The notes under the pieces are model-generated. The model was not told the origin of the DNA, ran no database searches, and was given only the letters and a program-made list of their open reading frames with translations. A stretch of DNA of 64,000 bases from an uncultured Ignavibacteria bacterium (lineage in GTDB: Bacteria; Zixibacteria; MSB-5A5; CAIYYT01), in contig CAZIBI010000002.1 of NCBI GenBank assembly GCA_964537215.1, positions 1-64,000 of the forward strand, given 5' to 3'. Below are positions 23,257-42,889 of this stretch, one piece after another (position 1 is the stretch's first letter; every line of letters starts with the position of its first letter). Made by a program: the position numbers and the translations under genes.

Positions 23257-23294
23257 GCGGGAGTGGCGAAATTGGTGGACGCAAGGGACTTAAG
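23257..23294 (+). pseudogene. tRNA-Leu(UAA)-like 5' half (acceptor 5' strand, D-arm, anticodon 5' stem and loop); no 3' half
   Basis: Matches bacterial tRNA-Leu(UAA) through GGACTTAA and then diverges. Slightly mutated relative to copies 2 and 3. Confidence 0.6.
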
Positions 23295-23434
23295 AAGCAA
23301 ACCTGACGAAAACACATGCGAATGACACGCAACGCATTCCCTTCCGCGAAAAAGGGAAGAGGCGCAATTAGTAATGTGCTGCTTTGGATCGACTTCGACA
23401 ACTTTGGATTCTGCGTAGTCACAAATCGGTCACA
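23257..23434 (+). repeat. 178-bp direct repeat, copy 1 (tRNA-Leu 5'-half-like head + GTCACA-N5-GTCACA tail)
   Basis: Conserved head GCGGGAGTGGCGAAATTGGTGGACGCAAGGGACTTAAGAAGCAAACCTGACGAAAAC. Conserved tail TTTGGATCGACTTCGAC...GTAGTCACAAATCGGTCACA. The middle is variable. Confidence 0.8.
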
Positions 23435-23539
23435 GACGCTTCTCTGAGTCTGTATTCATAATTTGAACCAACCTCAAAGAGATCGTGTACAAACTATCGA
23501 CGCCAGGTAAAAACACATCGATCTCTTGTAGGAGCGCGT

Positions 23540-24691
23540 TTGAAGCAGTTCGCGAATGAAAACCATAAATTAATCGTCGAGAAATCACAGGAGCTAAACA
23601 ATCTTACGCTCGGTCGGCGCAGTGTCGCGCAGAGATTGGAGTTGATCAAACTTTACGGCTCCCATTCCTTGGCGTATGCGACACTACAGACCGACTCCTG
23701 TGGAAATCCGCTTCTCGAATATTTCGACACAGATGATGGTTTCCTGGCGTTTTCGACGACGCACTGTTTTGGCACGCGCCAAATCGTACTAGGCGAGCCA
23801 ATTTGTTCGCACGACGACATGGAAGGCATGCTGGCGGCATTTATCAAAAGGTACCCAAGAGCTGTGTTTCTTCAGATTGGCGAGTTTGTCGGTCGTTGTC
23901 TCGAAAAACTCGGCTTCCTCGTCAATAGATTTGGCACAGAGACTATTCTCGACATCGAGAGCTTTTCCCTGAAAGGACTTAGGCGCCAGGACATCCGCAC
24001 GCTACTAAACCGTGCTCACCGAGGCTGTGTCGAAGTCAGGACGTTGCCGAATGTCGACGAATCCCCGCTCGACGTCGAGCAAGTAAGTTTTGAGTGGCTG
24101 CAGAGCCGAGTAGTTCGATCCAGCGAGCTGCGGTTCATGGTAAGGCCGGTACTTCACACAGGGGAGCCTTATGTTCGCAGGTTATATGCATTCGCGAGAG
24201 AGAAATTGGTGGGCTTCGCTTACTATGATCCGATATTTCGAAGTGGGAGAATTGTCGGATATCACGCGATGACGAATCGTTTCTCAGCGAGCGCTCCCGG
24301 GGGCACTTCCTACCTTCTCGATGTCACCATGGCAGCGCTGCTCAAAGACGAAGGAGTCCCACATCTTGCGTTGGGATTTGCTCCATTCTCTCGCGTTGGC
24401 GAACGAGAGTTGTTTCGACACAGTTGGGTTGCGAAGAGATCATTTTCGTTCAACTATTCTTGTTTGAACTCGCTCTATAATTTCAGGGGCCAGGACCTTC
24501 GCAAGCGCAAATTCTGCGGGCGCAGTTTGCCGCTCTACTTCGCGTCAAAGGGGCGTCTCCTGCGCCCATTCGTGGATTTGCTTTCCACTTGCAGAGTAAG
24601 CAACTTCCGCATCGGAGGTCAGATACTGCAGGCTGTCGGGATCCATAACAGAGTATCCGCGGAATTGCCTTCCACTACTGGCGTTTGTTGA
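23540..24691 (+). CDS. DUF2156-like protein (related to the C-terminal aminoacyl-tRNA-dependent domain of MprF/LysX-type phospholipid aminoacyl transferases)
   Basis: 383 aa; overall resemblance to the DUF2156/GNAT-like fold. TTG start with AGGAG SD. Moderate confidence. Confidence 0.45.
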   Translation: MKQFANENHKLIVEKSQELNNLTLGRRSVAQRLELIKLYGSHSLAYATLQTDSCGNPLLEYFDTDDGFLAFSTTHCFGTRQIVLGEPICSHDDMEGMLAAFIKRYPRAVFLQIGEFVGRCLEKLGFLVNRFGTETILDIESFSLKGLRRQDIRTLLNRAHRGCVEVRTLPNVDESPLDVEQVSFEWLQSRVVRSSELRFMVRPVLHTGEPYVRRLYAFAREKLVGFAYYDPIFRSGRIVGYHAMTNRFSASAPGGTSYLLDVTMAALLKDEGVPHLALGFAPFSRVGERELFRHSWVAKRSFSFNYSCLNSLYNFRGQDLRKRKFCGRSLPLYFASKGRLLRPFVDLLSTCRVSNFRIGGQILQAVGIHNRVSAELPSTTGVC

Positions 24692-24867
24692 GTGCGTTCG
24701 TGACAGGACAGCCGGCTATCCATTCGCAACAGACTGCGCGTCGTCCGGCGCATTCAAATGATAGGCAAAGCAACTATTGGAGTGAGTGTCCCTCGATGGC
24801 AACTTCATTACGACATTCTGTTACGTTAAGTTAGAATCAGAGCCATGCGGAAACGAGAGTTCGTCTG

Positions 24868-26205
24868 ATGCATTCTGATCCCATCGCACCAGTGCTTTTG
24901 ATGCTCATGGTCATCCTCGCGGCAGCGAAAATCTGCGGTGAGATCAGCGAGCGCCTCGGTCAGCCGTCGGTCTTGGGCGAGCTACTCGCGGGCATCCTGT
25001 TGGGGAATATCGTCCTTCTGAATCCAGACTGGACGCTTTTTGAATCGTTGCGCGAATCAGCGATTTCTGTAGAACCCGCCGTAATTGTCGACGCTCTCGC
25101 GCGCCTGGGCGTCATTCTGCTTCTGTTTGAAGTTGGACTCGAATCGACCGTGGCTGAGATGAAAAATGTCGGCAAGGCATCGCTTTGGGTGGCTGCTGCA
25201 GGAGTCATCGCTCCCTTCATTCTCGGATTCGGAGCGAGTTGGTTGTTCATATCGGAAGTGCCGAGTGACATTGCAAGGTTGGTTCCGGCTGATTTCGGGG
25301 TTATTAATATTCATATTTTCATAGGCGCCACTCTTTGTGCTACCAGCGTGGGAATAACGGCACGAGTATTCAAAGACTTAGGCAAACTTCAAATTCGCGA
25401 GGCAAAAATCATACTCGGAGCGGCGGTAATCGACGATGTCCTGGGTTTGATCATTCTGGCTGCGGTGTCTGCAATTGTAGCTTCCGCTATGACCGGTGCG
25501 CCGCTTAGCGCATTCGGGCTTGCGCGAATTGCCGTGATTTCGATCGGTTTCCTGGTTCTGTCGATTTTCGTCGGAGTGAAACTCATTCCGCGTATTATGA
25601 CACTTCTTGCCAAGCTCCGATCCGATGGAATCATGGTTATCTCTGCGCTGTTGTTCTGCTTTTTGCTTTCGTGGCTAGCCGACGAAGCCGGACTGGCCGC
25701 GATCGTTGGCGCATTTGCGGCGGGATTGATTCTCGAAGAAGTGCACTTCCGAGACTTCCGCGAACGAATATCGATGCATGAACTCATCCGACCGATAACA
25801 ACATTTTTTGTCCCAATCTTCTTCGTATTGATGGGAATCCGAGTTCGGCTCGAGATGTTTGCATCGCTCCAAGTGCTCGGGCTGGCAGCAGCTTTGACAA
25901 TTGCGGCAATTATCGGAAAGCAGATTTGCGGACTCGCAATCAGAGAAAAGGGCATCGATAAGATTAGTATCGGCGTCGGGATGATACCGCGTGGGGAAGT
26001 GGGACTGATCTTTGCAGGCATTGGTAAGAGCCTGAATGTGGTTGACGACGCCCTATTTTCGGCAATTGTGATTATGGTCACTCTAACGACTTTTGCTGCT
26101 CCACCGATCCTAAGATGGTCGCTCGGTCGCTGGGAAAAAAAGCATGCAAGCGCTGACGGTTCGTCGACACAGGCCTCTCCTCCAGAATCTCCTCCAACGA
26201 AATAA
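24868..26205 (+). CDS. Cation:proton antiporter (CPA2/Kef-type Na+(K+)/H+ exchanger)
   Basis: 445 aa, about 12 TM helices, Na_H_exchanger-type conserved D/E and GxxG patterns. Confidence 0.8.
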   Translation: MHSDPIAPVLLMLMVILAAAKICGEISERLGQPSVLGELLAGILLGNIVLLNPDWTLFESLRESAISVEPAVIVDALARLGVILLLFEVGLESTVAEMKNVGKASLWVAAAGVIAPFILGFGASWLFISEVPSDIARLVPADFGVINIHIFIGATLCATSVGITARVFKDLGKLQIREAKIILGAAVIDDVLGLIILAAVSAIVASAMTGAPLSAFGLARIAVISIGFLVLSIFVGVKLIPRIMTLLAKLRSDGIMVISALLFCFLLSWLADEAGLAAIVGAFAAGLILEEVHFRDFRERISMHELIRPITTFFVPIFFVLMGIRVRLEMFASLQVLGLAAALTIAAIIGKQICGLAIREKGIDKISIGVGMIPRGEVGLIFAGIGKSLNVVDDALFSAIVIMVTLTTFAAPPILRWSLGRWEKKHASADGSSTQASPPESPPTK

Positions 26206-26325
26206 TCTGCACAATTGGGGAGTCGTTTTAGCTTTATCCACTTCCCACCTTTGGCAATTAAACCATTGTTGTACATACTGATAGATAGGCAATCTGCGGC
26301 TTTACGGGTTTCCCCAAAAAATACT

Positions 26326-26378
26326 TGACAAATTGCTTTCTGTACCGATAATTTGTATACGAATGATGTGTATGCAAA
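26326..26378 (+). promoter_or_regulatory. Sigma70-like promoter (TTGACA-18-TAATTT) overlapped by the inverted repeat TTTGTATAC-N9-GTATGCAAA (candidate MarR operator)
   Basis: Read directly from the sequence upstream of the MarR gene. Confidence 0.35.
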
Positions 26379-26439
26379 TTATAGGAGAGGATGATTGCTC
26401 CAGTGAGGCATACGCATGGAGCACGGGAGGAGTTTCAGA

Positions 26440-27069
26440 GTGAGCGATCCCAAGCCCACAGGCATAGAGGGCGGACCGGCTGAGGCAGATGCACAGCTTA
26501 AGAGCGACTCAAGCGGCAGCAATGCAAATTCTAATGATTCGGCGCACGCTTTGCCGGTTGATATGCAGCCGCCTTATGAGCTGCATGTTTTGAAATCTCT
26601 TCGTCGGATCATCAGGGCTCTTGACCTCTATTCGCGGAGACTTAAGGGCAGCTATGGTCTGACAGTGCCGCAGCTGGTGTGTTTGTCAGTGATTGCAAAG
26701 GATGGACCTATTTCATCGATCGCGCTTTCACAACAAGTGCAGCTAAGTCCCAGCACCATTGTGGGCATTTTGGATCGCCTGCAGAAAATGGAACTAGTCA
26801 AGAGAGTGAGAAGCGTCACCGACCGCAGACTGGTCATAATTACAGCTTCCGAACGTGGGGAAGAAGTGGTTAACGGGGCACCTTCACCACTGCAAGACAG
26901 TCTGACTATTGCTTTAAAGAACCTTCCCGCTACGGAGCAGGAGACCATTGCCAGATCGCTGGGAAGAGTCGTTGAGCTTATGCAAGCACAGGATATTAGG
27001 GTGGCACCGATTCTCACGTTGGAGAAGAACGACTTCTCCATGAATGGAGCGCAAGGAAAGCAAAAGTAA
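26440..27069 (+). CDS. MarR-family transcriptional regulator
   Basis: wHTH core LTVPQLVCLSVIAKDGPISSIALSQQVQLSPSTIVGILDRLQKMELVKRVRSVTDRR. GTG start with GGGAGGAG SD; the ORF track extends upstream to 26416. Confidence 0.75.
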   Translation: MSDPKPTGIEGGPAEADAQLKSDSSGSNANSNDSAHALPVDMQPPYELHVLKSLRRIIRALDLYSRRLKGSYGLTVPQLVCLSVIAKDGPISSIALSQQVQLSPSTIVGILDRLQKMELVKRVRSVTDRRLVIITASERGEEVVNGAPSPLQDSLTIALKNLPATEQETIARSLGRVVELMQAQDIRVAPILTLEKNDFSMNGAQGKQK

Positions 27070-27096
27070 TCTTTGACTATTGGTCAGGAGGTGTCA

Positions 27097-27789
27097 ATGT
27101 TAAGGGGAGTCAAGAAAGTATTAGGATACAAAGTCAGTTCGAACGAGGGGCGTTGCGGTGTGGTGCACGATTTTCTTTTTGACGACCGGTTTTGGAAGCT
27201 AAGCCACTTGGTCGTAAGAATCTCGCTGCCGCAGAAATCACTCCGCCTGTTCCAGCTATCTGCCAAAACTCCCGCGACTGCGATTGCTGAAGCGAACACT
27301 CTAATGCTAAAAGCCAATTCCTCTGCAATACTGTCATCGCCGTCGATCGAGGCTAACCCGCCCGTGTGTCGCCAGCGTAAGCAAGAACTATCGAAACTAA
27401 AGACAGGCGTTACTTCGCACAGCAACGATCAGCCGGATTTCCCGTCCTCAGGGCAGTTGACTCCCGTACCGATGAATCCGAGCTCTCCGAATCCCTCGAC
27501 TCCAGAGTCCGCGAAGGAGGAAACCAGATGGAATCCTCACCTTAGGAGTGTCCGGGAGGTTATTGGTTACCGGATACGAGCGCAAGACGGTCGTGCCGGA
27601 GTCTTGGAGGATCTCATTTCCGATGAGTTTGATTTTTCGATTCGCTACCTGGTCGTCCGAACGCAGCGATTCCTGCTCCGCAAGAGAGTGATCGCAACCC
27701 CAATTGAAGTGAAAGGAATTAGCTGGGACACAGCGACGGTCGATGTCTCGGTGGACCGGCGAGCTTTGCGTCAGCGTCATCCAGTATAG
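27097..27789 (+). CDS. Tandem PRC-barrel domain protein
   Basis: Two PRC-barrel-like units (VLGYKVSSNEGRCGVVHDFLFDD..., VIGYRIRAQDGRAGVLEDLISDE...) separated by a Pro/Ser-rich linker. ATG with GGAGG SD. Confidence 0.65.
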   Translation: MLRGVKKVLGYKVSSNEGRCGVVHDFLFDDRFWKLSHLVVRISLPQKSLRLFQLSAKTPATAIAEANTLMLKANSSAILSSPSIEANPPVCRQRKQELSKLKTGVTSHSNDQPDFPSSGQLTPVPMNPSSPNPSTPESAKEETRWNPHLRSVREVIGYRIRAQDGRAGVLEDLISDEFDFSIRYLVVRTQRFLLRKRVIATPIEVKGISWDTATVDVSVDRRALRQRHPV

Positions 27790-28019
27790 GTGGCGCTGGC
27801 TGAAGACATGTTCGCTTGAAGGCGCAGTAATTCGATTTGCCTTGGCAAGAGAAGTCGGGTCGGTCAATTGGAATTCTTCATTACTTCTCGGGGTTGTGAG
27901 TAACCCTGCCAATCGCGCATCGAAGTGCCAAGCGAATAGTCAGTTGTATTGCCGGCGATTGAACTCCTTGTGGAAAAATGTCGGTGCGGTCCGCTTCGAC
28001 GGAGAAAGGAGAAATAGAA

Positions 28020-28400
28020 ATGACACAGGCCATAACAACCAGAAGCGTAGCACTTTCTGCACAGTCCAAGCGCGTTCTTACGAGTGTCACACGGCATTTG
28101 GAAGCGTTTTTTCGCAGGGTGCTTAGAATCGAATGGACGATCGATACCAGTGGCCGCGGCATAGAGGTCCATTTGAAAGTACATGCGCGCTCCGGGCACT
28201 ATCGCGCACATTGTTGCGTGAACGATGTGGACGCGGGAATTCGCTTAGCAGCTGATCGGGTTGAACGCCAAAGGCGCAGAAAGAAGAAAATCGACTTGCG
28301 AGAGAAGCGTCGGTCGATCTTGTCTCCGAAAGCACGTTTGGCGAAGACCAGCAATACAGGCAAGAGCGCCGGAAATGTCCTTCGTGACTGGCAAAGCTGA
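28020..28400 (+). CDS. hpf: Ribosome hibernation-promoting factor / RaiA-family (short HPF)
   Basis: Beta-alpha-beta-beta-beta-alpha pattern with the conserved AIDxxxDxxERQ..K tail (DAGIRLAADRVERQRRRKK). AAAGGAGAAA SD. Confidence 0.6.
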   Translation: MTQAITTRSVALSAQSKRVLTSVTRHLEAFFRRVLRIEWTIDTSGRGIEVHLKVHARSGHYRAHCCVNDVDAGIRLAADRVERQRRRKKKIDLREKRRSILSPKARLAKTSNTGKSAGNVLRDWQS

Positions 28401-28440
28401 TTCGCCGCAAGGACCGCAGCACGGAAGGAAGTGACACGCG

Positions 28441-29541
28441 ATGAATCTCGATACTTCAGTTGCCGCCAATACTCCGATCGACTGGCTGGTTGCACTCTTG
28501 GTGCCGCTGGTAGCGAGCGGAATAGTCTGGTTGATTCGGTTCTATGTCAAGAAGCGACTGGCGGTATTAGCAGCAGCGACTGACAATGTCCTGGATGACA
28601 TCCTGGTAGATCTCATCGGCGGCGTCAATCTGTTCATCGTATTTGTCGTTGTCGCCTTCATGTCTTCGCGAGCCCTCGTGTTGCCGGAATCCCTGGTTCC
28701 GATTATCAAGACTCTAGCTATTATCGCAGCCTTCGCGCAAGTGGCAATCTGGGGAAACGGTCTGATCTCGATGTTTCTGAATCGCGCCCAAATGAATGAG
28801 GGTTCGCAGCGAATCAATCCATCGGCGCGCAGAGCCATGGGATATCTTGGTCGGCTAGTTCTGTGGACACTAGTAGGTGCACTATTGCTGGAAAACCTGG
28901 GAGTCCAACTAAGCGCATTACTTGCCGGTGTCGGAATCGGCGGCATCGCACTCGCTCTGGCCGCGCAAAATGTCTTGGGAGACATCTTCTGCTATGTCGC
29001 CATCATTCTCGATAAGCCGTTCATCGCCGGTGACTTTGTTATCGTGGGCGAGATGATGGGGACGATCGAGCGGATTGGAATCAAAACAACGCGGGTTAGA
29101 TCGCTTTTCGGCGAACAATTGGTTTTCTCAAATCATGATTTAGTCACAAGCAGATTGCGGAATTACAAGACTATGAGTCAGAGGCGAGTAGTTTTCAGCT
29201 TCGGAGTCGCATACGAAACGCCTGTCGAATCAGTCAAGGGAATTCCGGAAATGACGCGCGAAATAATTTCTTCGATTGAGAGTACGAGATTTGATCGAGC
29301 CCACTTCGCCAAATTTGGTGACTTTAGCCTGGATTTTGAGATTGTGTACTACATTCTCGACAGCGACTACAATCGCTACATGGATATTCAACAACGGATC
29401 AATGTTGAATTGATGAAGCGCTTCAGGGACGAGGGAATCGAGTTCGCATATCCGACCCAGTCGCTTTATCTCAAGCGGCCGGAACGAATAGTAAGGGAGG
29501 CGCCGCCGTTGGTCGCGGAGGAAAGTGATGGGTACAATTGA
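28441..29541 (+). CDS. Small-conductance mechanosensitive channel (MscS family)
   Basis: TM3 pore-helix-like LALAAQNVLGDIFCYVAIILDKPFIAGDFV followed by the MscS beta-domain. The stop overlaps the downstream start. Confidence 0.85.
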   Translation: MNLDTSVAANTPIDWLVALLVPLVASGIVWLIRFYVKKRLAVLAAATDNVLDDILVDLIGGVNLFIVFVVVAFMSSRALVLPESLVPIIKTLAIIAAFAQVAIWGNGLISMFLNRAQMNEGSQRINPSARRAMGYLGRLVLWTLVGALLLENLGVQLSALLAGVGIGGIALALAAQNVLGDIFCYVAIILDKPFIAGDFVIVGEMMGTIERIGIKTTRVRSLFGEQLVFSNHDLVTSRLRNYKTMSQRRVVFSFGVAYETPVESVKGIPEMTREIISSIESTRFDRAHFAKFGDFSLDFEIVYYILDSDYNRYMDIQQRINVELMKRFRDEGIEFAYPTQSLYLKRPERIVREAPPLVAEESDGYN

Positions 29542-29711
29542 ATAGGAATAAATCAGATGGTGATATAGGGTTCGACCGCGGGCTAGATGTTGAAGCACCG
29601 CGACTCGAACCGCAAGGTTTATCTTTGGAAAATCCAATCGCAAATTTCGAGAGCAATACTGTGCATACCGCGGCGGGCCTCGCCGCCAGGATCGAGGCGG
29701 TTGCACGCGGT

Positions 29712-31139
29712 ATGAAGCTGATCGTGGTGTCGAACCGAGAGCCATGTATTCATGAGCGAACCGGACAGGGACTGCGAATTGTGAGACCGGCAAGCGGCAT
29801 GGTAACGGCGCTGGAACCGATTGTGCGGGCGGTCGGCGGAACATGGGTTGCCCATGGATCCGGTAGCGGCGATCGCAACGTCGTCGATGCTCGGGATCGC
29901 GTAGTCATTCATGCTAATGAACAGCAATACACGCTTCGGCGAGTCTGGTTGACGCGACAGGAGGAAGAGGGATATTATTATGGGCTATCCAACAGTGCGC
30001 TGTGGCCCCTGTGTCACATTGTGTACCAGATGCCCGAATTTCGCAAGAGCGATTGGGACCAGTACCTCGCAGTAAACGAGAAATTCTGCCAGGCTGTTCT
30101 TGAGGAAGCGGAGGGGGGACCAGCGATTGTCTTTATTCAAGACTATCAGCTCGGACTACTTTCGCGCCTGTTAAGAAATCGTCGAAGCGATCTCGTACTG
30201 GTACAGTTTTGGCACATCCCTTGGCCAAATCGGGAGGCCTTCCGCGTTTTTCCGTGGGGCGAACAACTGCTTGACGGGCTTTTAGGCAACGACATATTGG
30301 GTTTCCACATTCAGTATCACTGCAATAATTTCATGGACACTATCGATCGCGGAATTGAGGCCAAAGTTGATTACGAACATTTTCGCATTTTTCGCGGCGG
30401 TCGTCCAACCTCGATTCGTCCGTTTCCGATTAGTGTTGACTCGGCGCAGATAGAATCAGATTCGCATTTGCCCCGTGTTGATGAAAAGATCCTTGAATTT
30501 AGCGCTGCTATCGGTTACGCCCCCGGCAATCGAAGGTTGTTTGTCGGCGCTGACCGGATCGACTACACGAAGGGAATTCTTGAACGATTAAAGGCTCTTG
30601 ACGTCTTGATGCAACAACATCCGGAACTTCGCGGGAATATTAGTTTCATGCAGTTGGCCGCACCCAGCCGCACCCACATTGATGTATATCGTGACCTTAA
30701 TGATCGGATAGAAGATCTGGTTGACGACATAAACTGGCGCCATCAAACTGACGAATGGCAGCCCATCCATTACCTCAGAGCTCAACACGACTATTATGCG
30801 GTTTTAGCCGCCTACCGGATGGCTGATGTTTTATTGACCACGTCGTTGCATGACGGCATGAATTTGGTCGCCAAGGAATTTATTTCCACCAAGAGTGATA
30901 ACAGCGGAGTTCTCGTGCTTTCTCAATACACCGGGGCTGCCCGGGAAATGCCCGATGCCCTTTTAGTAAATCCGTTCGATGTCGAGGATCTTGCCGCAGC
31001 CATGTATGCGGCCTGCACGATGTCGGAGACCGAAATTAGTCAACGGATGTCGCGCCTTAGAGACCAACTAACTAATAACAATGTCTATTCTTGGGGAGCA
31101 AAAATCTTCGACGAGATTAGAAAGGTGCTTCCGCAATGA
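29712..31139 (+). CDS. otsA: Trehalose-6-phosphate synthase-like GT20 glycosyltransferase (OtsA; could also be a glucosylglycerol-phosphate synthase)
   Basis: GT20 architecture (KLIVVSNREP..., IQDYQL, FWHIPWP, C-terminal GMNLVAKE). An alternative TTG start at 29538 overlaps the MscS stop. Confidence 0.75.
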   Translation: MKLIVVSNREPCIHERTGQGLRIVRPASGMVTALEPIVRAVGGTWVAHGSGSGDRNVVDARDRVVIHANEQQYTLRRVWLTRQEEEGYYYGLSNSALWPLCHIVYQMPEFRKSDWDQYLAVNEKFCQAVLEEAEGGPAIVFIQDYQLGLLSRLLRNRRSDLVLVQFWHIPWPNREAFRVFPWGEQLLDGLLGNDILGFHIQYHCNNFMDTIDRGIEAKVDYEHFRIFRGGRPTSIRPFPISVDSAQIESDSHLPRVDEKILEFSAAIGYAPGNRRLFVGADRIDYTKGILERLKALDVLMQQHPELRGNISFMQLAAPSRTHIDVYRDLNDRIEDLVDDINWRHQTDEWQPIHYLRAQHDYYAVLAAYRMADVLLTTSLHDGMNLVAKEFISTKSDNSGVLVLSQYTGAAREMPDALLVNPFDVEDLAAAMYAACTMSETEISQRMSRLRDQLTNNNVYSWGAKIFDEIRKVLPQ

Positions 31140-31915
31140 GCGAAGCGAGCAAGCGTGCAAACTCAATTTGGGTATTTGACTTTGATGGAACATTATCGGA
31201 AGTCGTCCCGGATCGCAACGAAGCTTCACTTCATCCTGCGTGCCAACAAATGTTGACTGCCTTATTAGGCAGCGAGAGTGAAGAGGTTGCGATCTTGTCA
31301 AGTCGCCGGCTGGAGGACTTGATTCCGCGCATTCCGTTTCGAGGAATTCTGCTGGCAGCTAGTAGCGGACTGGAACTACAATTGTCGAACGGGGAAATTG
31401 TCCTTCCAAACAAGAGAGAATTTCAAGAATTGGAGCCTGTTCGTCTCCAGATCATGCCGCTTGTGAGGTCAATTGAACTAAATATCCCGTTCGTCGAGAT
31501 TGAAGACAAGTTGTGGTCAGTGACAGTTCACTATCGTCGCGTTTCTCCGGATAACCGTCCGTCGCTGCGCTATATGCTTGCAGCGCTTGGTTCGATTCCG
31601 GGGATTCAAGTATTTGAGGGAACGGAGGCGCTCGAATTGATGATGGTGCCACGCTATAGCAAATCTGCGGGTCTACGCAAGATTGCCAGAATCACTGGAT
31701 TTGACCGATGCGTTGCCAAAATTGTCTTCGCAGGAAACGATGAGAACGATGCCCGCGCCATGAGGTGGGTACTGGGCAAGGGGGGACGATCAATAGTTGT
31801 GGGGAATCGCATACACGTCGAGGGCGCGCTCGTTGTTTCGGACCAAGTGGAACTAGCAGCCAAAGTCATGTCGTTGCGGCTATCGCAAAAGACGCCGCAT
31901 TCTGCGGGGCGATGA
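31136..31915 (+). CDS. otsB: Trehalose-6-phosphate phosphatase-like HAD hydrolase (OtsB)
   Basis: HAD motif I (IWVFDFDGTL). ATGA overlap with the otsA stop. Confidence 0.75.
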   Translation: MSEASKRANSIWVFDFDGTLSEVVPDRNEASLHPACQQMLTALLGSESEEVAILSSRRLEDLIPRIPFRGILLAASSGLELQLSNGEIVLPNKREFQELEPVRLQIMPLVRSIELNIPFVEIEDKLWSVTVHYRRVSPDNRPSLRYMLAALGSIPGIQVFEGTEALELMMVPRYSKSAGLRKIARITGFDRCVAKIVFAGNDENDARAMRWVLGKGGRSIVVGNRIHVEGALVVSDQVELAAKVMSLRLSQKTPHSAGR

Positions 31916-32154
31916 TCAGAATTGACCTGTAAAGTCTATTGCTTCCGGAACAAACTCGATATCCTACTCACTACTTGCAACAAATTGTATGCATGAGTTG
32001 CCGCAAATCACCGGATATTCCCGTAAACCAGATTGAAGTTAATTCTCGCACTTGCAATCGGTCTTTCAAATTCTTCCCCCAGAGCCGAAAGAATGTTCTT
32101 GTGGAGAGAAAAGCTGAAGAGTATCTGGTAAGGTAGTTAGTCAGGAAAGAGCTA

Positions 32155-33378
32155 ATGCAAAACGAGTTTATTGAGAGCGTACTCACATTCCTAAAGGCTC
32201 CCGAAGTCGGTTACATACTACTGATTTTCTTTCTTTTCATCGTGCCGAGAATTCTGCAACGATTTCGACTTCCGTCAGCCATCACGAGCTTTGCGCTCGG
32301 AATTGCCGCGGGAATGGGGCTGAACATTTTCCAACACGATGAGACTATCGCGCTGCTTGCGACTTTGGGAATTGTCTCGCTGTTCTTACACGCAGGTCTC
32401 GATGTCAGCGTCTCCGAGCTTCGTCGGAACTCCCGTGTATTGATCTACCATTTGATATTTCTCTTGCTGTTGCTTGTGGTCGGGTCGATTGTGGTTGCTA
32501 AGGTCTTCGAGCTGTCAATGCGAGTCTCGATTCTCATCACTCTGGCACTGGCGACTCCATCGACTGGCTTTATTCTGGACTCGATCAAGGCCTTTGGACT
32601 CAGCGACGATGAGAGAAACTGGATCAAGACCAAGGCGATCTCGGCAGAATTACTTGCGTTGGCAGGCATGTTTCTCACGCTTCAATCCCTGACCGCAGAG
32701 AAGTTCCTGATTTCGATGGGAGTTATGCTGGCTCTAGCTCTCTTGATCCCTTTCTTCTTTCGTTTCTTTGCCTCGAAGATTGTTCCGTACGCCCCCAATT
32801 CGGAGTTTGCGTTCCTAATCATGTTGGCGATTGCATGTGCCTTCGTTACGCGAAAGATTGGCGTCTATTATCTCGTCGGCGCGTTTGTGGTTGGCGTCGC
32901 AGCCACAAGCTTCAAGCAGAAACTCCCTTCGGTGGCGTCCGATCGGCTCTTGCACTCTGTCGAGCTATTCGCTTCATTTTTTGTTCCTTTCTATTTCTTC
33001 AAGAGCGGGACATCGCTAACAGCCTCTGACTTCAGCCTGAACGCGTGGCTTCTTGCCGGCGCCTTCATTGTGATCATGGTTCCGGCCCGACTCGCAGTGG
33101 TTGTTGCACACCGGCGTTTCGCGCTCAAGGAATCGGTCCGGGAAGGACTCCGCGTCGCCTTCCCGATGCTGCCCACACTGATTTTCACTTTGGTTCTGGC
33201 CCAAATTCTGCGCGAGCAATTTGCTCTTAGCAACGAACTCTTCGGAGGTCTGGTGATCTACGCTGTTGCGACGAGCCTGATGACAGGCTTTGTTTTCCGG
33301 ACACCGCAACCAGATTTCGAGAGTGAACTGATTGAGCATTCGGCGTCGTCGGTGACGCCAACAAAAAGCGAGGGGTAA
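32155..33378 (+). CDS. Cation:proton antiporter-family membrane protein
   Basis: 407 aa with 11–12 TM helices and Na_H_exchanger-like N-terminal helices. Confidence 0.55.
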   Translation: MQNEFIESVLTFLKAPEVGYILLIFFLFIVPRILQRFRLPSAITSFALGIAAGMGLNIFQHDETIALLATLGIVSLFLHAGLDVSVSELRRNSRVLIYHLIFLLLLLVVGSIVVAKVFELSMRVSILITLALATPSTGFILDSIKAFGLSDDERNWIKTKAISAELLALAGMFLTLQSLTAEKFLISMGVMLALALLIPFFFRFFASKIVPYAPNSEFAFLIMLAIACAFVTRKIGVYYLVGAFVVGVAATSFKQKLPSVASDRLLHSVELFASFFVPFYFFKSGTSLTASDFSLNAWLLAGAFIVIMVPARLAVVVAHRRFALKESVREGLRVAFPMLPTLIFTLVLAQILREQFALSNELFGGLVIYAVATSLMTGFVFRTPQPDFESELIEHSASSVTPTKSEG

Positions 33379-33391
33379 GGAACGGAATTCA

Positions 33392-35149
33392 CTAGCGTCG
33401 GATTTGGTCAACGAGCCTGCGATTGTAGAATTCAAGAACAGAGTTTCGCAAAAGCAACCCGACCGGCCTGAAAGCTTCAGAATCAAGCACCGGAAGTAAT
33501 TGAGAGCCCGTAAGGTTAAACTTGTTTAGCGCGGTTTCAAGGCTGTCCGTGACGAGCAGCGATGGCGTTTCAACGCTTACGATGTCTCCGGCAACGATCA
33601 CACCACCGGTTTCTCGATACGAAAGAATCGACCTGATATCACCCAGTGATGCGACACCACGGAAAGCTCCATCTTTGTCAACCACCACCACGGCCGGGCA
33701 GTTGGCATCTTCTAGCATCTCAAGGAAATCGTCGACAGGAGTGCTTGTTGAGACTTGCGCCGAGATCGGACTCATCACTTCGGTGACTTTCAGAGAATTG
33801 AGGATATTGGCATCACGGCCGGAGCGCAAGTCGATTCCGCGCTTAATTAGCTTTGCCGTATAGATCGAGTGTGCAAAAATACCCCGGGAAACCAACGATG
33901 ATACGGCTACCGTTACCATCAGCGGCAGTATGATGTGGTAGTCTCCGGTCATCTCGAAGATGATCATCAACGCCGTTATCGGGGCGTGGGTCGTTCCTGC
34001 AACGAGGCCCGCCATTCCGACGAGGGCGTAGGCGCCCGGATCCGCAGTGACGCCGGGGAAGAGCGCTTGGGCTACGAATCCAAAAGCTCCGCCGGCCATT
34101 GCTCCGGTGAAGAGGGATGGGGCAAAGATGCCGCCCGAGCTGCCTGAACCAAGAGTCAGCGACGTGGCGACGATTTTGAGAAATATCAAAGGGATGAGAA
34201 GCGCCAGTGCCATGTTGTTGTGAAGTGTCAGTCTGATTGTTTCATATCCATCGGCAAGCACTTGCGGATAGAGAAATGCAACTATACCAAGCAATAACCC
34301 ACCTAAGGCAGGTTTAACAATCGACGGCAGCTTCATCGATTCGAACGCGTCCTCGAAATAGTCAAGCGTCTTTGTGAAAAGGACGGCTAACGCACCGAGA
34401 ACAGCGCCCATACCCACATACATGAGAATTTCCCAAGCGGAGACGAGCTCGTACGGAGGCACCTCAAAAGCCGGATGATTTCCAAGTATTGACCTTGTGA
34501 GTACGGACGCCAAAACCGAGGAGATGAGGACCGGCGAGAAAGTGCTGATGGCGAAATCTCCCAAGATAACCTCGAGGGAGAAGAATACGCCGGCGATCGG
34601 CGCATTAAAGATAGCCGAGATACCGGCGGCCGCGCCGCATCCCACCAGTAGTCTGACATTGTTGGTCGAGAGGCCGAAGAACTGCGCAACGGTCGATCCG
34701 AGAGCCGAGCCAATCTGTACAATGGGACCTTCGCGGCCGGCAGAGCCACCGGAGCCGATGCAGATTGCTGACGCAACGGACTTAGCCAAAGCCACCCGTG
34801 GCCTGATGATACCGCCAAGTCGGGCAACGGCATTCATAACTTCCGGAACACCGTGTCCTTTGGCTTCTTTGGCGAAGTGGAAAACGATTGGTCCGACCAG
34901 AAGACCGCCCAGCATTGGGATAATCGGCGTCCAATAGTGAAAACCCGCTCCTCCCAGGGCAGTCGAGAGAAGTTGATCCGTCATGCCGAAAAAGAGTCGA
35001 TTGAAGTAACGGATGAGCGCAGTAAATCCGATCGCACCAAGCCCCGTCACGATGCCGACGCTTGCCGCCATTAGCAGAAGGGCATTGATTCCGCGAATCC
35101 GAAAGCGATCCAGAAAACTTAAGATATTCTTGCCAGCTTGCACGATCAT
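33392..35149 (-). CDS. ClC-family chloride channel/antiporter with C-terminal CBS pair
   Basis: GSGGSAGREGP, GxFAPSL(F) and GREGP selectivity motifs, C-terminal CBS domains. Probable ATG at 35149; the ORF track opens on TTG at 35164. Confidence 0.85.
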   Translation of the reverse strand: MIVQAGKNILSFLDRFRIRGINALLLMAASVGIVTGLGAIGFTALIRYFNRLFFGMTDQLLSTALGGAGFHYWTPIIPMLGGLLVGPIVFHFAKEAKGHGVPEVMNAVARLGGIIRPRVALAKSVASAICIGSGGSAGREGPIVQIGSALGSTVAQFFGLSTNNVRLLVGCGAAAGISAIFNAPIAGVFFSLEVILGDFAISTFSPVLISSVLASVLTRSILGNHPAFEVPPYELVSAWEILMYVGMGAVLGALAVLFTKTLDYFEDAFESMKLPSIVKPALGGLLLGIVAFLYPQVLADGYETIRLTLHNNMALALLIPLIFLKIVATSLTLGSGSSGGIFAPSLFTGAMAGGAFGFVAQALFPGVTADPGAYALVGMAGLVAGTTHAPITALMIIFEMTGDYHIILPLMVTVAVSSLVSRGIFAHSIYTAKLIKRGIDLRSGRDANILNSLKVTEVMSPISAQVSTSTPVDDFLEMLEDANCPAVVVVDKDGAFRGVASLGDIRSILSYRETGGVIVAGDIVSVETPSLLVTDSLETALNKFNLTGSQLLPVLDSEAFRPVGLLLRNSVLEFYNRRLVDQIRR

Positions 35150-35395
35150 ATCATAAACAATCAAATTTCTGCGCCAAGCTCATATGGCACCCGAATCCAT
35201 GAAGGTGAGTGCTCAAGAGATCACTGGAGACTTCGAATCTTGTGTTACACGAAGTACCTTTCCGTTATTAGGAACGTCAGTGGCTACCGTGTCCAACGAC
35301 ATGTCTCTGATTGCGTGTAAGACCATTCTGTGACTGTTGCTGTTTTCGGAAGTGGAGACACTGTCCTCGTGTCCCACAAATGCTTTGCGGCACGG

Positions 35396-35424
35396 ATTGG
35401 CAAGGACGCAAGGGACTAAAAATT
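35396..35424 (+). repeat. Degenerate fragment of the tRNA-like repeat head (GACGCAAGGGACTAAAAA), about 55 bp upstream of copy 2
   Basis: 18/19 identity with the D-arm/anticodon portion of the repeat head. Confidence 0.4.
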
Positions 35425-35474
35425 ACTTGTGCGTACTACAGGTCTCTTGTAATGTTGTGCCACTGAGTTATTTT

Positions 35475-35512
35475 GCCGGAGTGGCGAAATTGGTAGACGC
35501 AAGGGACTTAAA
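35475..35512 (+). pseudogene. tRNA-Leu(UAA)-like 5' half, copy 2 (best-preserved)
   Basis: Identical to canonical bacterial tRNA-Leu(UAA) from G1 through the anticodon loop CTTAAAA, then unrelated sequence. Confidence 0.65.
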
Positions 35513-35652
35513 AAGCGAACCCGACGAAAACGTAAATGAATGAGCTTCATTGTATTACATTGTGTAACAATCTGATAGCTCGCACTTCTTGATGTATTAG
35601 TTTGGATCGACTTTGACTATTTGGGACTGAATGTAGTCACAAATTGGTCACA
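35475..35652 (+). repeat. 178-bp direct repeat, copy 2
   Basis: GCCGGAGTGGCGAAATTGGTAGACGCAAGGGACTTAAAAAGCGAACCCGACGAAAAC ... TTTGGATCGACTTTGACTATTTGGGACTGAATGTAGTCACAAATTGGTCACA. Confidence 0.85.
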
Positions 35653-35917
35653 ACGTGGATTTGTTAATCTCCGCACGGTTTGCTGATTCTCCCCATTCGC
35701 GTACGGTTTCTGTTAACGTCAAGCAGTTCTTTGACCTTCGGATCGCGACAGCAGCACGGCTTGATTCAAGCCCTTGCCTGCGGCTATAGTGGATGGAAAC
35801 CCCCTGATATCGTTCAGAGGGAGCTATGGACCTGAGCATGCAGAAGTCCATTGGAGTGGATAAATCCCTCCAGTACGACTCGCACAGGGAGACGCTACTT
35901 TTGTCGTGCGCCTTCAG

Positions 35918-38053: not shown

Positions 38054-38396
38054 TCTCCTAAGTGCAGTTTATCATAGATCGTGACGCTGCGGAAGGTGCC
38101 TTGCACACTACCTATTCGGAACTCGCGCGCCCAAATCCCATCGGCCAACTGAGCGTCGAAGATCTGTTCCTCTGGAATGTTATGGCTCGTCTCATTTCCG
38201 GATAGGGAAGCATATTCCTTTCTGGCGTCACAACCGCAAATACAACCATCGATGCTGAGGCAAAGTGTGCATGCTGTTACCACTTGACCAATTCGGAGGT
38301 ACAGCCGCAACCGTTTAGGGAAAGATCGCCCGTTCTTGCTTGACAGTTCTTTTGTCAGAAAGGTAGATTTCCGATGCCCGACTTGAACTTGCAAGG

Positions 38397-38786
38397 TCAT
38401 CGGCAGGCATCCACGATTCGCACAATTTGTCCTTCTACCTGCGCTGCGATCGCCGCCACGTCTTTGCTGGGGAAGAAGTTGGAGATTACTGTCGGTCGCA
38501 TTGCGCAAATGAACGTACGTCCCTTGTCGGCATAGATGCTGATGGGACAAGGAAGCATCAGAGAGATCTCTGGATCGATGCTGAGGACGTCATTCGCGAA
38601 TTTGGCGTTGCAGATTTCCACAATTTTCATCGATTCACGAACAAATCCTTTGGCCGCCAAGGTTGCTTGAACGTCGTGAACGTGCAGCACGCGAAACCCA
38701 GCATCCTGGCTCGTTGCCTCGACTGCAGCAAGCGCGGCGTCCACACTCTTGCCCGTCTCAACCGTATAGTCGAATTCCTTTTGCAT
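38397..38786 (-). CDS. DUF302-family protein
   Basis: Conserved DUF302 core (GFRVLHVHDVQATLAAKGF...MLPCPISIY). Start at internal ATG with GAGGAG SD. Confidence 0.65.
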   Translation of the reverse strand: MQKEFDYTVETGKSVDAALAAVEATSQDAGFRVLHVHDVQATLAAKGFVRESMKIVEICNAKFANDVLSIDPEISLMLPCPISIYADKGRTFICAMRPTVISNFFPSKDVAAIAAQVEGQIVRIVDACR

Positions 38787-38949
38787 TGCTTTGACTCCTC
38801 GGTAAAACGATTTCAATTGATTCTGCTCCACTGTCTGCACACCTGCGTTCGTGATCAACTCGCCTCAACGCACTCGGCACGAAACCGATGCTGCGTTGCA
38901 ATGTTGTTCTCAAACGTTTCGGTTTTATCGATAGCAATTCCACGCACGC

Positions 38950-39489
38950 CTACGGTCGTGTCCGAAAATGAAGCATGAAGCCGCCGTATTGGTAGCTATT
39001 CATGTCCATCATCATGCCATTGCGACCGCGTACGTCACCGTAAACGTACAGCATGCAGTTCGTATTCGGCATCAAGGTTGAGTCGACGTAGAATGTGCAG
39101 CTGTCGAGCATTTGATTCCACTCAAATGAGCCGTGAAAATCGATTGAGTCGAGCCAGTTCATCATGTGGCCCATGTTCATCATGCCGCCGCCCATCATAC
39201 CACGGTGATGCTGGAGCGAGTCCATCCAGCTGGGCAAACCCGGACTTGCAGTGAAGTGGAAGTTGTGTCGGAAGCTGGCTGAGTCCATCGGCATATCAAA
39301 CTTGATGTCGAGAATCGGTTTTAAGGCAACGTCGTTACTTCCTTCTGCCGGCGTGACGCGAACGATTTTCGGTGCGGTCGTAGGAAGACTATTGCCAGTA
39401 GTCTTATTGTCGTCACTGCAACCGGCAATCCACGAAAGCGACACTACCAGAACCAGCCCGAGCAATGCTGTGACAGAGAATTGTCTCAT
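38950..39489 (-). CDS. Lipoprotein with Met/His-rich motif (candidate Cu/Ag-binding periplasmic protein)
   Basis: Signal peptide plus lipobox (WIAGCSDD). HHRGMMGGGMMNMGHMMNW Met-rich stretch. AAGGAGA SD. Adjacent to the czc-type operon. Confidence 0.5.
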   Translation of the reverse strand: MRQFSVTALLGLVLVVSLSWIAGCSDDNKTTGNSLPTTAPKIVRVTPAEGSNDVALKPILDIKFDMPMDSASFRHNFHFTASPGLPSWMDSLQHHRGMMGGGMMNMGHMMNWLDSIDFHGSFEWNQMLDSCTFYVDSTLMPNTNCMLYVYGDVRGRNGMMMDMNSYQYGGFMLHFRTRP

Positions 39490-42878: not shown

Positions 42879-42889
42879 ATGGTAGTCTC

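What the first reader, a model, noticed from the sequence alone, without database searches (positions are those of the whole stretch)
23415..23434. Conserved GTCACA-N5-GTCACA direct-repeat motif at the tail of every repeat unit (four occurrences)
GTAGTCACAAAT(C/T)GGTCACA occurs at 23415, 35633 and 47065, and as a solo copy at 46763, always in the same orientation. Two hexamer direct repeats spaced about one helical half-turn apart are typical of arm-type recombinase binding sites or of a dimeric regulator operator. Its strict conservation against the variable repeat interior suggests protein recognition.
Basis: seen in the sequence. Interest (0 to 1): 0.55.

Follow-up and report, generated by a model that had tools for sequence, protein, structure and literature searches.

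The report
Integrase arm sites at island junctions
The repeated GTCACA pair is most likely the docking site for a phage-P22-type integrase on the arms of its attachment site; here it marks the junctions of three genomic islands stacked beside a split tRNA-Leu gene, which is a well-understood kind of element and fairly ordinary.

Summary
GTCACA-N5-GTCACA occurs four times on the + strand (23418, 35636, 46766, 47067), against 0.31 expected. Three copies end a ~180-nt repeat. Each repeat starts with the first 39 nt of a tRNA-Leu gene, broken in the anticodon loop. The window holds no intact tRNA and no integrase.

In other genomes the same 19-mer (TAGTCACAAWTYGGTCACA) sits in two places. One is ~125-150 nt from a displaced tRNA half. 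The other overlaps the 3' end of a tyrosine-integrase gene, in all three reading frames, 28-125 nt from an intact tRNA.

The integrase of the nearest relative aligns full-length with phage P22 Int (E 1e-37). P22, HK639 and related phage attP sites have the same layout: an 11-bp-spaced hexamer pair at the int 3' end, a tRNA core, and a second pair ~220 bp away. The hexamer co-varies between the two arms of each phage.

The motif is therefore a pair of arm-type integrase sites. The window holds a tandem array of integrase-less islands (osmotic stress, copper efflux, defence) at tRNA-Leu, in the rarer orientation that replaces the tRNA's 5' half.

Its "half-turn" spacing is wrong, because 11 bp is one full turn. 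Known kind, new member. Binding itself is untested.

The parts
23257..23295 (+). Displaced 5' half of tRNA-Leu(UAA), copy c1. It runs from the acceptor stem to the anticodon loop CTTAAGA. It is probably the host's original 5' half, at the left border of the island array.
   Evidence: Read directly. It aligns with the intact tRNA-Leu(UAA) of L022 at 95% over 39 nt. ARAGORN finds no intact tRNA in the window. Ordinary chromosomal genes lie to its left (POT transporter, amidohydrolase).
23296..23415 (+). Integrase-distal arm of the att site of island 1. It has conserved blocks (AGCnAACCnGACGAAAAC, GAATGA, TTTGGATCGAnTTTGAC..TTGGGACT) around a variable middle.
   Evidence: Alignments A2, A3 and A4.
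23416..23434 (+). Arm-site pair TAGTCACAAATCGGTCACA. It is the outermost conserved element of the arm.
23435..35474 (.). Island 1 cargo, with no integrase: LPG-synthase-C-like protein, two Na+/H+ exchangers, MarR, MscS, trehalose-6-P synthase and phosphatase, CLC channel.
   Evidence: Pfam scans. tblastn with 11 integrases found nothing.
35397..35422 (+). Decayed extra remnant of a tRNA-Leu 5' half (ATTGGCAAGGACGCAAGGGACTAAAAA). It looks like the scar of a lost element.
   Evidence: Read. Weak nhmmer hit, E 0.35.
35475..35513 (+). tRNA-Leu(UAA) 5' half, copy c2, brought in by island 1.
   Evidence: 100% identical over 40 nt to the intact tRNA-Leu of L022.
35634..35652 (+). Arm-site pair TAGTCACAAATTGGTCACA, in the integrase-distal arm of island 2.
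35653..46763 (.). Island 2 cargo, with no integrase: Cu/heavy-metal P-type ATPase, a 1064-aa ORF not scanned against any library (RND-type pump is a guess from its operon position only), HlyD/CusB-like adaptor, outer-membrane factor.
   Evidence: Pfam scans. ORF list.
46764..46782 (+). It is the integrase-proximal arm at the right end of island 2.
   Evidence: The homologous arrangement, motif then ~123 nt then tRNA-Leu, occurs in L013 and L021. The overlapping minus-strand ORF 46438-46824 is not conserved as an ORF in L021 or L013.
46783..46905 (+). Rest of the integrase-proximal arm. It includes the conserved block just upstream of the tRNA start (..AAGATAAGTTCAAATTGTTGAAC..), which is probably the tRNA promoter supplied by the element.
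   Evidence: 72.6% identity to L013 and 77.9% to L021 over this stretch. Sequences. The promoter role is inferred.
46906..46944 (+). tRNA-Leu 5' half, copy c3. Its anticodon loop reads CTCAAAA, that is CAA. It was brought in by island 2.
47065..47083 (+). Arm-site pair TAGTCACAAATTGGTCACA, in the integrase-distal arm of island 3.
47084..64000 (.). Island 3, which runs off the window: ImmA/IrrE-like peptidase, TrwB/HerA-like ATPase, PD-(D/E)XK nuclease, DUF932, DNA methylase with a ResIII/endonuclease protein, PHP-AAA protein.
   Evidence: Pfam scans. The contig L083 adds only ~970 nt to the right.

Best explanation
The motif is a pair of adjacent arm-type binding sites for a heterobivalent tyrosine integrase of the P22 Int family. 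The two sites are one helical turn apart, on the same face of the DNA. Such an integrase holds the crossover core with its C-terminal domains. Here the core is the anticodon stem-loop of a tRNA gene. Its small N-terminal domain holds the distant arm sites, which folds the ~250-300-bp attachment site into a recombination complex. In this family each arm carries one pair, so the two arms together offer four sites, which would fit the four N-domains of an integrase tetramer. After integration, one pair stays at each end of the element. The window shows the result of repeated integration at one tRNA-Leu gene, in the rarer orientation where the element replaces the promoter and 5' half of the tRNA. 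Each of the three repeat units is a displaced 5' half followed by the integrase-distal arm of the next island. The 'solo' copy is the integrase-proximal arm of island 2. The stretch 46764-47083 is therefore a complete attP-like junction between islands 2 and 3. Islands 1 and 2 carry only cargo. The integrase and the intact tRNA-Leu are expected beyond the right end of the window, or have been lost. Island 2, and islands 1+2 together, keep a full set of arm sites and could be excised if an integrase were supplied. Island 1 alone has lost its proximal pair. Shown here: the anatomy, the association with integrases and tRNAs, the homology to P22 Int, and the co-variation between arms. Inferred: that Int's N-domain is the binding protein, the four-site count, and the mobility of the islands.
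For: (1) Each repeat unit starts with tRNA-Leu positions 1-39 and leaves the tRNA in the anticodon loop. The window has no intact tRNA and no Rfam match.

(2) The exact 19-mer occurs in 71 loci of 185,579 representative genomes, about 75 instances. I estimate ~17 by chance. With four viral-contig loci added, 51 of 80 instances have a tRNA arm or an integrase C-terminus within 260 nt, against 64 of 858 control positions in the same loci.

(3) Integrase-linked copies are followed 28-79 nt later by an intact tRNA: Arg, three Leu isoacceptors, Gln, Lys.

(4) The same MAG holds both ends of an element. L008 has the tRNA-Arg(ACG) 5' half plus the motif, and L004 has int, the motif and an intact tRNA-Arg(ACG), identical through the anticodon loop. 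L021 and L022 do the same for tRNA-Leu.

(5) A complete bounded element lies on one contig, L013+L067: 5' half, 125 nt, motif, 3.9 kb of ABC efflux genes plus MarR, motif, 123 nt, intact tRNA-Leu(UAA).

(6) The motif overlaps the int 3' end in three frames..SHKLVT....VTNWSQ.., and with its TAG as the stop codon.

(7) L022 Int aligns with P22 Int over its full length, including the N-terminus (28% identity, E 1e-37). All seven integrases checked have a ~55-aa N-terminal extension ahead of the core-binding and catalytic domains. It matches Arm-DNA-bind_2 above Pfam's cut-off in one of them and only weakly (below cut-off) in three others.

(8) P22, HK639 and Burkholderia phage attP sites have the same layout, and the hexamer co-varies between the two arms of each phage. 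P22 has GTCCCA on both arms and HK639 has GACACA on both. The Burkholderia phage has GGCACA/GGCACA on one arm and the looser GTCACA/GGCGCA on the other. A Hafnia phage has imperfect pairs of the same kind. Pair-to-pair distances are 219-230 bp in P22, HK639 and the viral contig L076, against 301 bp in the window and L021.

(9) Conservation ends abruptly after the motif, as expected at the outer edge of an att site.

(10) No proximal pair exists upstream of c1, the chromosomal border, as the model predicts.
Against: No integrase, excisionase or intact tRNA lies in the window, so the cognate protein is inferred only from relatives. Binding of Int to the motif has not been tested for this variant. 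I could not read the P22 footprinting paper, so equating P22's GTCCCA pairs with its mapped arm sites rests on position and on my own recollection. The N-domain shows no detectable sequence link to lambda Int's arm-binding domain and has no solved relative. About a third of the genome hits show no tRNA or integrase nearby; these may be chance matches or decayed sites. The near-invariance of one 19-mer across many phyla is more than arm sites usually show.
Confidence: 0.82

Rival explanations
1. The pair is bound by the recombination directionality factor (Xis/RDF) or another accessory protein of the element, not by the integrase.
For: It is a phased direct repeat, as Xis sites are in lambda (own knowledge). 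The motif is nearly invariant although the linked integrases are only ~25-45% identical.
Against: The pair is present on both arms of the att site, whereas lambda Xis sites lie on one arm only (own knowledge). Other phased 10-11-bp repeats sit next to the distal pair and are better RDF candidates: TGCAAA x3 in P22, with GTATAC-type and TTTCAC-type repeats in environmental loci. The hexamer co-varies with the phage, and the only protein shared by all the elements examined is Int.
Confidence: 0.08
2. The pair is the operator of a dimeric transcription regulator that controls the downstream genes, and has nothing to do with recombination.
For: Each copy lies in an intergenic region upstream of genes.
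Against: The downstream genes differ and point either way: 23540 on the + strand, 35918 on the - strand, 47155 on the + strand. In other genomes the partners of the motif are tRNA halves and int genes, not any particular cargo gene. Direct repeats on one DNA face are unusual for a symmetric dimer.
Confidence: 0.03
3. The ~180-nt repeat is a structured non-coding RNA with a tRNA-like 5' domain (or a tRNA gene carrying an intron), and the motif is part of its 3' hairpin.
For: The units start with a promoter-like block and a tRNA 5' half. A local hairpin (GGGACT...AGTC) can form.
Against: There is no Rfam hit and no tRNA 3' half downstream. The fold is not better than shuffles (z = -1.2 and -1.8). 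RNAalifold on 9 homologues gives -12.5 kcal/mol with no covariation support. The same motif follows halves of different tRNAs in either orientation, and also lies inside int genes.
Confidence: 0.03
4. The matches are chance, or a by-product of segmental duplication.
For: None beyond the small number of copies in the window.
Against: There are 4 copies against 0.31 expected. The motif is the best-conserved block of units that are only 72-78% identical. It recurs in the same context across phyla.
Confidence: 0.01

Closest known systems
Phage P22 Int and its attP (arm-type sites; Smith-Mungo, Chan and Landy 1994, cited in 10.1101/2023.11.06.565760 and PMC4111918)
   Same: The integrase is homologous over its full length. 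The crossover lies in a tRNA anticodon loop. One 11-bp-spaced hexamer pair overlaps the 3' end of int. A second identical pair lies ~220 bp away on the other arm, next to a set of 10-bp phased repeats.
   Different: The hexamer is GTCACA here and GTCCCA in P22. The pair-to-pair distance is 301 bp here and 219 bp in P22. P22 restores the 3' half of tRNA-Thr, while the window's elements replace the 5' half and promoter of tRNA-Leu. The window has no int gene.
Lambda Int arm-type sites (P1, P2, P'1-P'3)
   Same: It uses the same heterobivalent logic (PMC2951348 introduction). The sequences look alike: lambda P'1-P'2 reads AGGTCACTATCAGTCAAAAT, P2 reads CAGTCACTAT and P1 reads AGGTCACTAAT, against TAGTCACAAATTGGTCACAA here. 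In both, adjacent sites are 10-11 bp apart and the int 3' end overlaps one arm.
   Different: No sequence homology between the N-domains is detectable (hhalign probability 0.2%). Lambda has five sites arranged asymmetrically. The lambda attB is not a tRNA gene. The sequence likeness may be coincidence.
Cis-mobilisable elements (CIMEs) and tandem accretion at one att site, as described for ICESt1/ICESt3 of Streptococcus thermophilus (own knowledge)
   Same: Cargo-only islands lie in tandem, each bounded by att sites, with no recombinase of their own. Int-less bounded units also occur in L013+L067 and L051.
   Different: Mobilisation by a neighbouring integrase has not been shown here. Island 1 has lost one arm pair.
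Integrative elements that recombine with the 5' part of a tRNA gene (Zhao and Williams 2002, cited in PMC6563490)
   Same: The element displaces the tRNA's 5' half and must supply a promoter and a new 5' half.
   Different: PMC6563490 describes this orientation as considerably less frequent. Among loci carrying this exact motif it is the commoner one by my reading.

Membership tests
Arm-type sites of heterobivalent tyrosine integrases | The sites lie in the arms, tens to ~150 bp from the crossover core, and differ in sequence from the core sites. | tested here: met
   The pairs lie ~125 nt on either side of the tRNA anticodon-loop crossover point.
Arm-type sites of heterobivalent tyrosine integrases | Copies occur on both arms of attP, so each prophage or island junction keeps some. 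| tested here: met
   Window 46766 and 47067. L021 has two pairs 301 nt apart. L076, P22 and HK639 carry pairs on both arms.
Arm-type sites of heterobivalent tyrosine integrases | A cognate integrase with an extra N-terminal DNA-binding domain is encoded next to the site. | tested here: inconclusive
   Not met in the window: there is no integrase. Met in relatives: int ends at or over the motif, and a ~55-aa N-terminal extension is present. That extension reaches Pfam's Arm-DNA-bind_2 cut-off in only one of the seven.
Arm-type sites of heterobivalent tyrosine integrases | The site is physically bound by the integrase N-domain and is needed for recombination. | not testable with these tools
   This needs EMSA or footprinting, and recombination assays.
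P22-type Int/att module | The integrase is homologous to P22 Int over its whole length. | tested here: met
   L022 Int against P22 Int: 28% identity, E 1e-37, residues 1-356 aligned with 1-315. An integrase for the window itself is unavailable.
P22-type Int/att module | The layout is an 11-bp-spaced hexamer pair at the int 3' end, then a tRNA core, then a second identical pair. | tested here: met
   for P22 and HK639. for the environmental loci. for the window.
Cis-mobilisable element (CIME) array | The islands are flanked by att sites and lack their own recombinase. | tested here: met
Cis-mobilisable element (CIME) array | The islands are excised or transferred by the integrase of a neighbouring element. 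| not testable with these tools
   No integrase is in view. Circular forms or empty sites would have to be sought in reads or by PCR.
Functional tRNA gene, or tRNA with an intron | A 3' half completes the cloverleaf. | tested here: not met
   ARAGORN finds none. The sequence after the anticodon loop is not tRNA, and nothing suitable lies downstream.

The most novel reading that the evidence does not exclude
One almost invariant arm code (TAGTCACAAWTYGGTCACA) may be shared by P22-type integrases that target many different tRNA genes (Leu, Arg, Gln, Lys, Thr, Phe, Met, Ser, SeC, and tmRNA) in well over ten phyla, mostly uncultured lineages. If so, the arms would act as universal handles and only the core specificity would change. 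Integrase-less cargo islands such as those in this window could then be picked up in trans by any resident family member whose core matches. In this lineage, integration on the 5' side of the tRNA, with the element supplying the promoter, would be the rule and not the exception.
Probability: 0.25. Interest if true: 0.5.

Novelty: new member of a known kind. Interest (0 to 1): 0.3.

Why it matters
The finding turns an unexplained repeat into a map. It fixes the borders of three islands (osmotic-stress, copper-efflux and defence cargo) in what is probably an Ignavibacteria-like genome. It predicts where the integrase and the intact tRNA-Leu should be. It also says which islands still have the sites needed to move. 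More generally, the 19-mer is a cheap, specific marker for att sites of this integrase family in uncultured phyla, where island borders are hard to call. The data also suggest that 5'-side tRNA integration is common in this lineage.

Tried and rejected
- **tRNA with an intron, or split tRNA.** Rejected: there is no 3' half, ARAGORN finds no tRNA, and Rfam has no match.
- **Structured RNA.** Single-sequence folds are not better than shuffles. RNAalifold on nine homologues shows no covariation.
- **Integrase in the window.** tblastn with 11 integrases from related loci gave only noise. Pfam scans of 30 window ORFs, 28 of them in the 23-64 kb island region, found no recombinase.
- **More att remnants in the window.** nhmmer found only the three units, the solo pair and one weak remnant. 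No decayed proximal pair lies upstream of c1 or c2.
- **Homology of the N-domain to lambda Int's arm-binding domain.** Not detectable. There is no solved relative.
- **Literature searches for the motif, and for the lambda and P22 arm sequences.** No useful hits. The key P22 papers and Zhao & Williams 2002 are not held.
- **Extending the window to the right.** The only contig returned adds ~970 nt.
- **Metagenome scan with a Leu-type arm pattern.** One uninformative hit.
- **DnaA-box or iteron reading.** Considered and dropped: each half has two mismatches to TTATNCACA, and the context does not fit.

Full report
**Observation**

GTCACA-N5-GTCACA occurs four times in the window, all on the + strand: 23418, 35636, 46766 and 47067. 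Shuffles gave 0.31 expected, and none of 100 reached four. The longer 20-mer is exact at 23415 and 35633 and has one mismatch at 46763 and at 47064.

Three copies end a ~180-nt direct repeat at 23255-23434, 35473-35652 and 46904-47083, 72-78% identical. The motif is the best-conserved block of that repeat, and similarity stops right after it. The hexamers are 11 bp start to start.

**What the repeat unit is**

Each unit begins with GCCGGAGTGGCGAAATTGGTAGACGCAAGGGACTTAAAA. This is the first 39 nt of a tRNA-Leu(UAA) gene, up to the anticodon loop, after which the sequence is no longer tRNA. Copy c1 differs in the acceptor stem and D-loop. Copy c3 reads CAA in the anticodon.

The window has no intact tRNA and no Rfam family. 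To the left of c1 lie ordinary genes: a PD40/amidohydrolase protein and a POT transporter. Between and after the units lie three blocks of cargo:
- **Island 1 (23.4-35.5 kb), osmotic stress.** LPG-synthase-C-like protein, two Na+/H+ exchangers, MarR, MscS, trehalose-6-P synthase and phosphatase, CLC channel.
- **Island 2 (35.65-46.8 kb), metal efflux.** P-type ATPase with an HMA domain, an unscanned 1064-aa ORF at 39684-42878 that sits where an RND-type pump would be expected, HlyD/CusB-like adaptor, outer-membrane factor.
- **Island 3 (47.1 to beyond 64 kb), mobile-element and defence genes.** ImmA/IrrE-like peptidase, TrwB/HerA-like ATPase, PD-(D/E)XK nuclease, DUF932, methylase with a ResIII protein, PHP-AAA protein.

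These calls come from Pfam scans and the ORF list. No tyrosine recombinase related to those described below is present.

**The motif elsewhere**

I scanned one genome per species (596 Gb) for TAGTCACAAWTYGGTCACA. It gave 71 loci and about 75 instances. With equal base frequencies I estimate ~17 by chance. The hosts span many phyla, mostly uncultured: Aminicenantes, Omnitrophota, Zixibacteria, Ignavibacteria, Latescibacterota, Acidobacteriota and Elusimicrobia. Neisseria, Pasteurellaceae, Methylophilus, Aneurinibacillus and clostridia also appear.

Reading the flanks and scanning for tRNAs shows a few recurring contexts:
- **(a)** The motif lies ~125-150 nt downstream of a tRNA 5' half (Leu, Arg, Phe, Met).
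- **(b)** The motif lies the same distance from a reverse-complemented tRNA 3' half (Thr, Phe and others).
- **(c)** The motif overlaps or abuts the 3' end of a tyrosine-integrase gene and is followed 28-79 nt later by an intact tRNA (L004 Arg-ACG, L022 Leu-UAA, L035 Leu-CAA, L050 Leu-GAG, L025 and L046 Gln, L043 Lys). In L011, L038 and L070 that tRNA points the other way.
- **(d)** The motif lies 70-137 nt downstream of an intact tRNA-Ser, tRNA-SeC or tmRNA.

A crude signature test covered these instances plus four viral-contig loci. It flags 51 of 80 instances, against 64 of 858 control positions in the same loci.

In context (c) the motif is read in all three frames..SHKLVT....VTNWSQ.., or with its TAG as the stop codon. 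The constraint is therefore on the DNA, not on a protein. In the window, the minus-strand ORF over the solo copy is not conserved as an ORF in L021 or L013.

**Both ends of one element**

In one MAG, L008 carries the first 40 nt of tRNA-Arg(ACG) followed by an arm and the motif. L004 carries int, the motif and an intact tRNA-Arg(ACG). The two are identical through the anticodon loop. L021 and L022 do the same for tRNA-Leu(UAA).

On one Zixibacteria contig (L013+L067) a complete unit is visible: 5' half, 125 nt, motif, 3.9 kb (ABC efflux genes plus MarR, no integrase), motif, 123 nt, intact tRNA-Leu(UAA). The only direct repeat there is the tRNA 5' half. The element therefore supplies the promoter and 5' half of the working tRNA and leaves the old 5' half behind.

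This 5'-side orientation is known but is described as considerably less frequent than 3'-side integration (PMC6563490, citing Zhao and Williams 2002).

The window's 46760-46944 is homologous to the motif-to-tRNA stretch of L013 (72.6%). The window's 46765-47083 is homologous to L021 (77.9%), which also has two pairs 301 nt apart.

**The integrase family**

The linked integrases have the Phage_integrase catalytic domain, a core-binding SAM-like/Int_N domain, and a ~55-aa N-terminal extension with a shared pattern (R..W.I.YY..G.R.R). Four of the seven match Pfam Arm-DNA-bind_2, but only one above the curated cut-off.

L022 Int aligns with phage P22 Int from residue 1 to the catalytic tyrosine region (28% identity, E 1e-37). 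A tblastn with the Pasteurellaceae integrase found 571 phage records.

In four of the five phage attP regions where both arms were available, the same layout appears:
- **P22.** ..TGTCCCAAATATGTCCCA.. lies inside the int 3' end. Next come the stop codon, a reverse-complemented tRNA-Thr 3' half, ~130 nt holding three TGCAAA repeats at 10-bp spacing, and then ATGTCCCATTTTTGTCCCA.
- **HK639.** GACACAAATACGACACA and GACACATCTGTGACACA.
- **Burkholderia phage E192a.** GGTCACATTTTGGGCGCA and GGGCACACTTTGGGCACA.
- **Hafnia phage Meifeng.** GTCACGTTTTTGGCACA and GACACAAATTTGGCACA, both imperfect pairs.

The Shewanella phage shows the pair at the int 3' end but no clear second pair. Pasteurella phage Pmp11 has ACGTCAAATTTACGTCAAAT at its int 3' end; its record lacks the other arm.

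Within P22 and HK639 the two arms use the same hexamer, and the Burkholderia phage nearly so, while the hexamer differs between phages. That is what is expected if one element-encoded protein reads both arms. The pairs are the only exact 11-bp-period hexamer repeats in the ~500-bp regions of P22, HK639, L076 and the window. Pair-to-pair distances are 219 (P22), 227 (HK639), 230 (viral contig L076) and 301 bp (window and L021).

P22's att site is one of the few that have been fully characterised (10.1101/2023.11.06.565760; PMC4111918, which gives attP as 260 bp). I could not read the footprinting paper itself. That its mapped arm sites are these GTCCCA pairs is therefore my inference from their position.

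**Mechanism**

Heterobivalent integrases bind core sites with the C-terminal domains and arm sites with the N-terminal domain. This assembles the intasome (PMC2951348, introduction).

I propose that each GTCACA-N5-GTCACA pair binds two N-domains side by side on one DNA face. The two pairs would then serve the four subunits of the tetramer. This count is inferred.

In the window:
- **c1** is the chromosomal border. It has the host's 5' half and the distal arm of island 1, with no proximal pair upstream.
- **c2** is the junction of islands 1 and 2. Its proximal pair has been lost. A further decayed 5'-half remnant lies at 35397-35422.
- **46764-47083** is a complete attP-like junction between islands 2 and 3.

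Island 2, and islands 1+2 as a block, still have a full set of sites. Island 1 alone does not. The integrase and the intact tRNA-Leu should lie to the right of the window. The only longer contig I could find adds ~970 nt.

Tandem, integrase-less, att-flanked islands correspond to what has been called cis-mobilisable elements (own knowledge). Tiny versions occur in L051, with a GGDEF gene and a HepT/MNT pair, each bounded by motif copies.

**Rivals**
- **RDF/Xis site.** Less likely. The pair is on both arms, and other family-specific phased repeats next to it are better RDF candidates.
- **Regulator operator.** This does not fit the varied downstream genes, or the tRNA and integrase partnership.
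- **Structured RNA.** There is no Rfam hit, no fold signal and no covariation. The motif also follows halves of different tRNAs in both orientations.
- **Chance.** Excluded.

**Comparison with lambda**

Lambda's arm sites read AGGTCACTAAT (P1), CAGTCACTAT (P2) and AGGTCACTATCAGTCAAAAT (P'1-P'2). These look like TAGTCACAAATTGGTCACAA. However, the N-domains show no detectable sequence relation. This is a resemblance, not evidence of membership.

**Verdict**

This is a new sequence variant and a new set of members of a known kind of site. It lies in a fossil or trans-dependent island array of an Ignavibacteria-like genome: L010 is 79-84% and L040 66-70% identical to parts of the window. The cross-phylum near-invariance of the 19-mer and the prevalence of 5'-side integration are modestly interesting. 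The rest is ordinary.

Noticed in passing
window 35397-35422: There is an extra, truncated and decayed copy of the tRNA-Leu 5' half (ATTGGCAAGGACGCAAGGGACTAAAAA), ~50 nt upstream of unit c2. It looks like the scar of a further element that was lost.
   Followed up: partly
window 46906-46944 (c3) compared with 23257-23295 and 35475-35513: The third 5' half has anticodon CAA where the others have UAA. A related Ignavibacteria locus (L035) has int, the motif and tRNA-Leu(CAA). Island 2's att site may therefore derive from an element that targeted the other Leu isoacceptor.
   Followed up: no
window 23215-23256, 35440-35474, 46860-46905; L013 about 6890-6940: A conserved block lies just upstream of every 5' half (..TAAATTG.. 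about 20 nt before the tRNA start). It resembles a Bacteroidota-type -7 promoter element. The displaced halves may therefore still be transcribed as truncated tRNA-arm RNAs.
   Followed up: no
L055, L029, L064 (Arg type); L007, L008, L051 (Thr/Arg types); P22 L082 21195-21225; window 35593-35630: Next to the distal pair, each att family has its own set of 3-4 direct repeats at 10-11-bp spacing: GTATAC.., TTTCAC.., TGCAAA in P22, and TTTGGATCGACTTTGAC..TTGGGAC in the window. These are candidate excisionase (RDF) sites.
   Followed up: partly
loci L001-L071: Among loci with the exact 19-mer, displaced 5' halves outnumber displaced 3' halves, by my reading of the flanks rather than a formal count. 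The 5'-side cases total roughly 20 plus 7 int-to-tRNA cases in the same direction. The 3'-side cases total roughly 13 plus 3. The literature'-side integration rare.
   Followed up: partly
L051 1860-3920; L047; L016: Mini-islands of 1-2 kb carry a single gene or a toxin-antitoxin pair: a GGDEF protein, HepT/MNT, a RelE-like protein. Each is bounded by motif copies next to tRNA-Thr or tRNA-Phe and has no integrase.
   Followed up: partly
L009, L028, L061 (MAG labelled Aenigmatarchaeota): Three contigs of a MAG labelled as a DPANN archaeon carry the motif. Their arm sequences are almost identical to those in Aerophobetes and Gammaproteobacteria MAGs (L023, L057), and the tRNA halves look bacterial. 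This could be mis-binning or a recent transfer.
   Followed up: no
window 54691-62309: Island 3 carries a DNA methylase (54691-56922), a ResIII/endonuclease protein (56935-59631) and a PHP-AAA/SMC-like ATPase (59628-62309), joined by overlapping start and stop codons. This is probably a type III-like restriction system plus a further defence gene.
   Followed up: no
L041 about 2960-2990; L044 about 2520-2570: Some loci have three units in tandem instead of two (GTCACAAATCGGTCACAAATCGGTCACA). The number of adjacent arm sites therefore varies.
   Followed up: no
L010 1368-1553 and L021 6094-6279: Older copies of the Leu-type arm carry single mutations in the first hexamer (AGTCCCA, AGCCACA). This fits decay of att sites once the element is fixed.
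   Followed up: no
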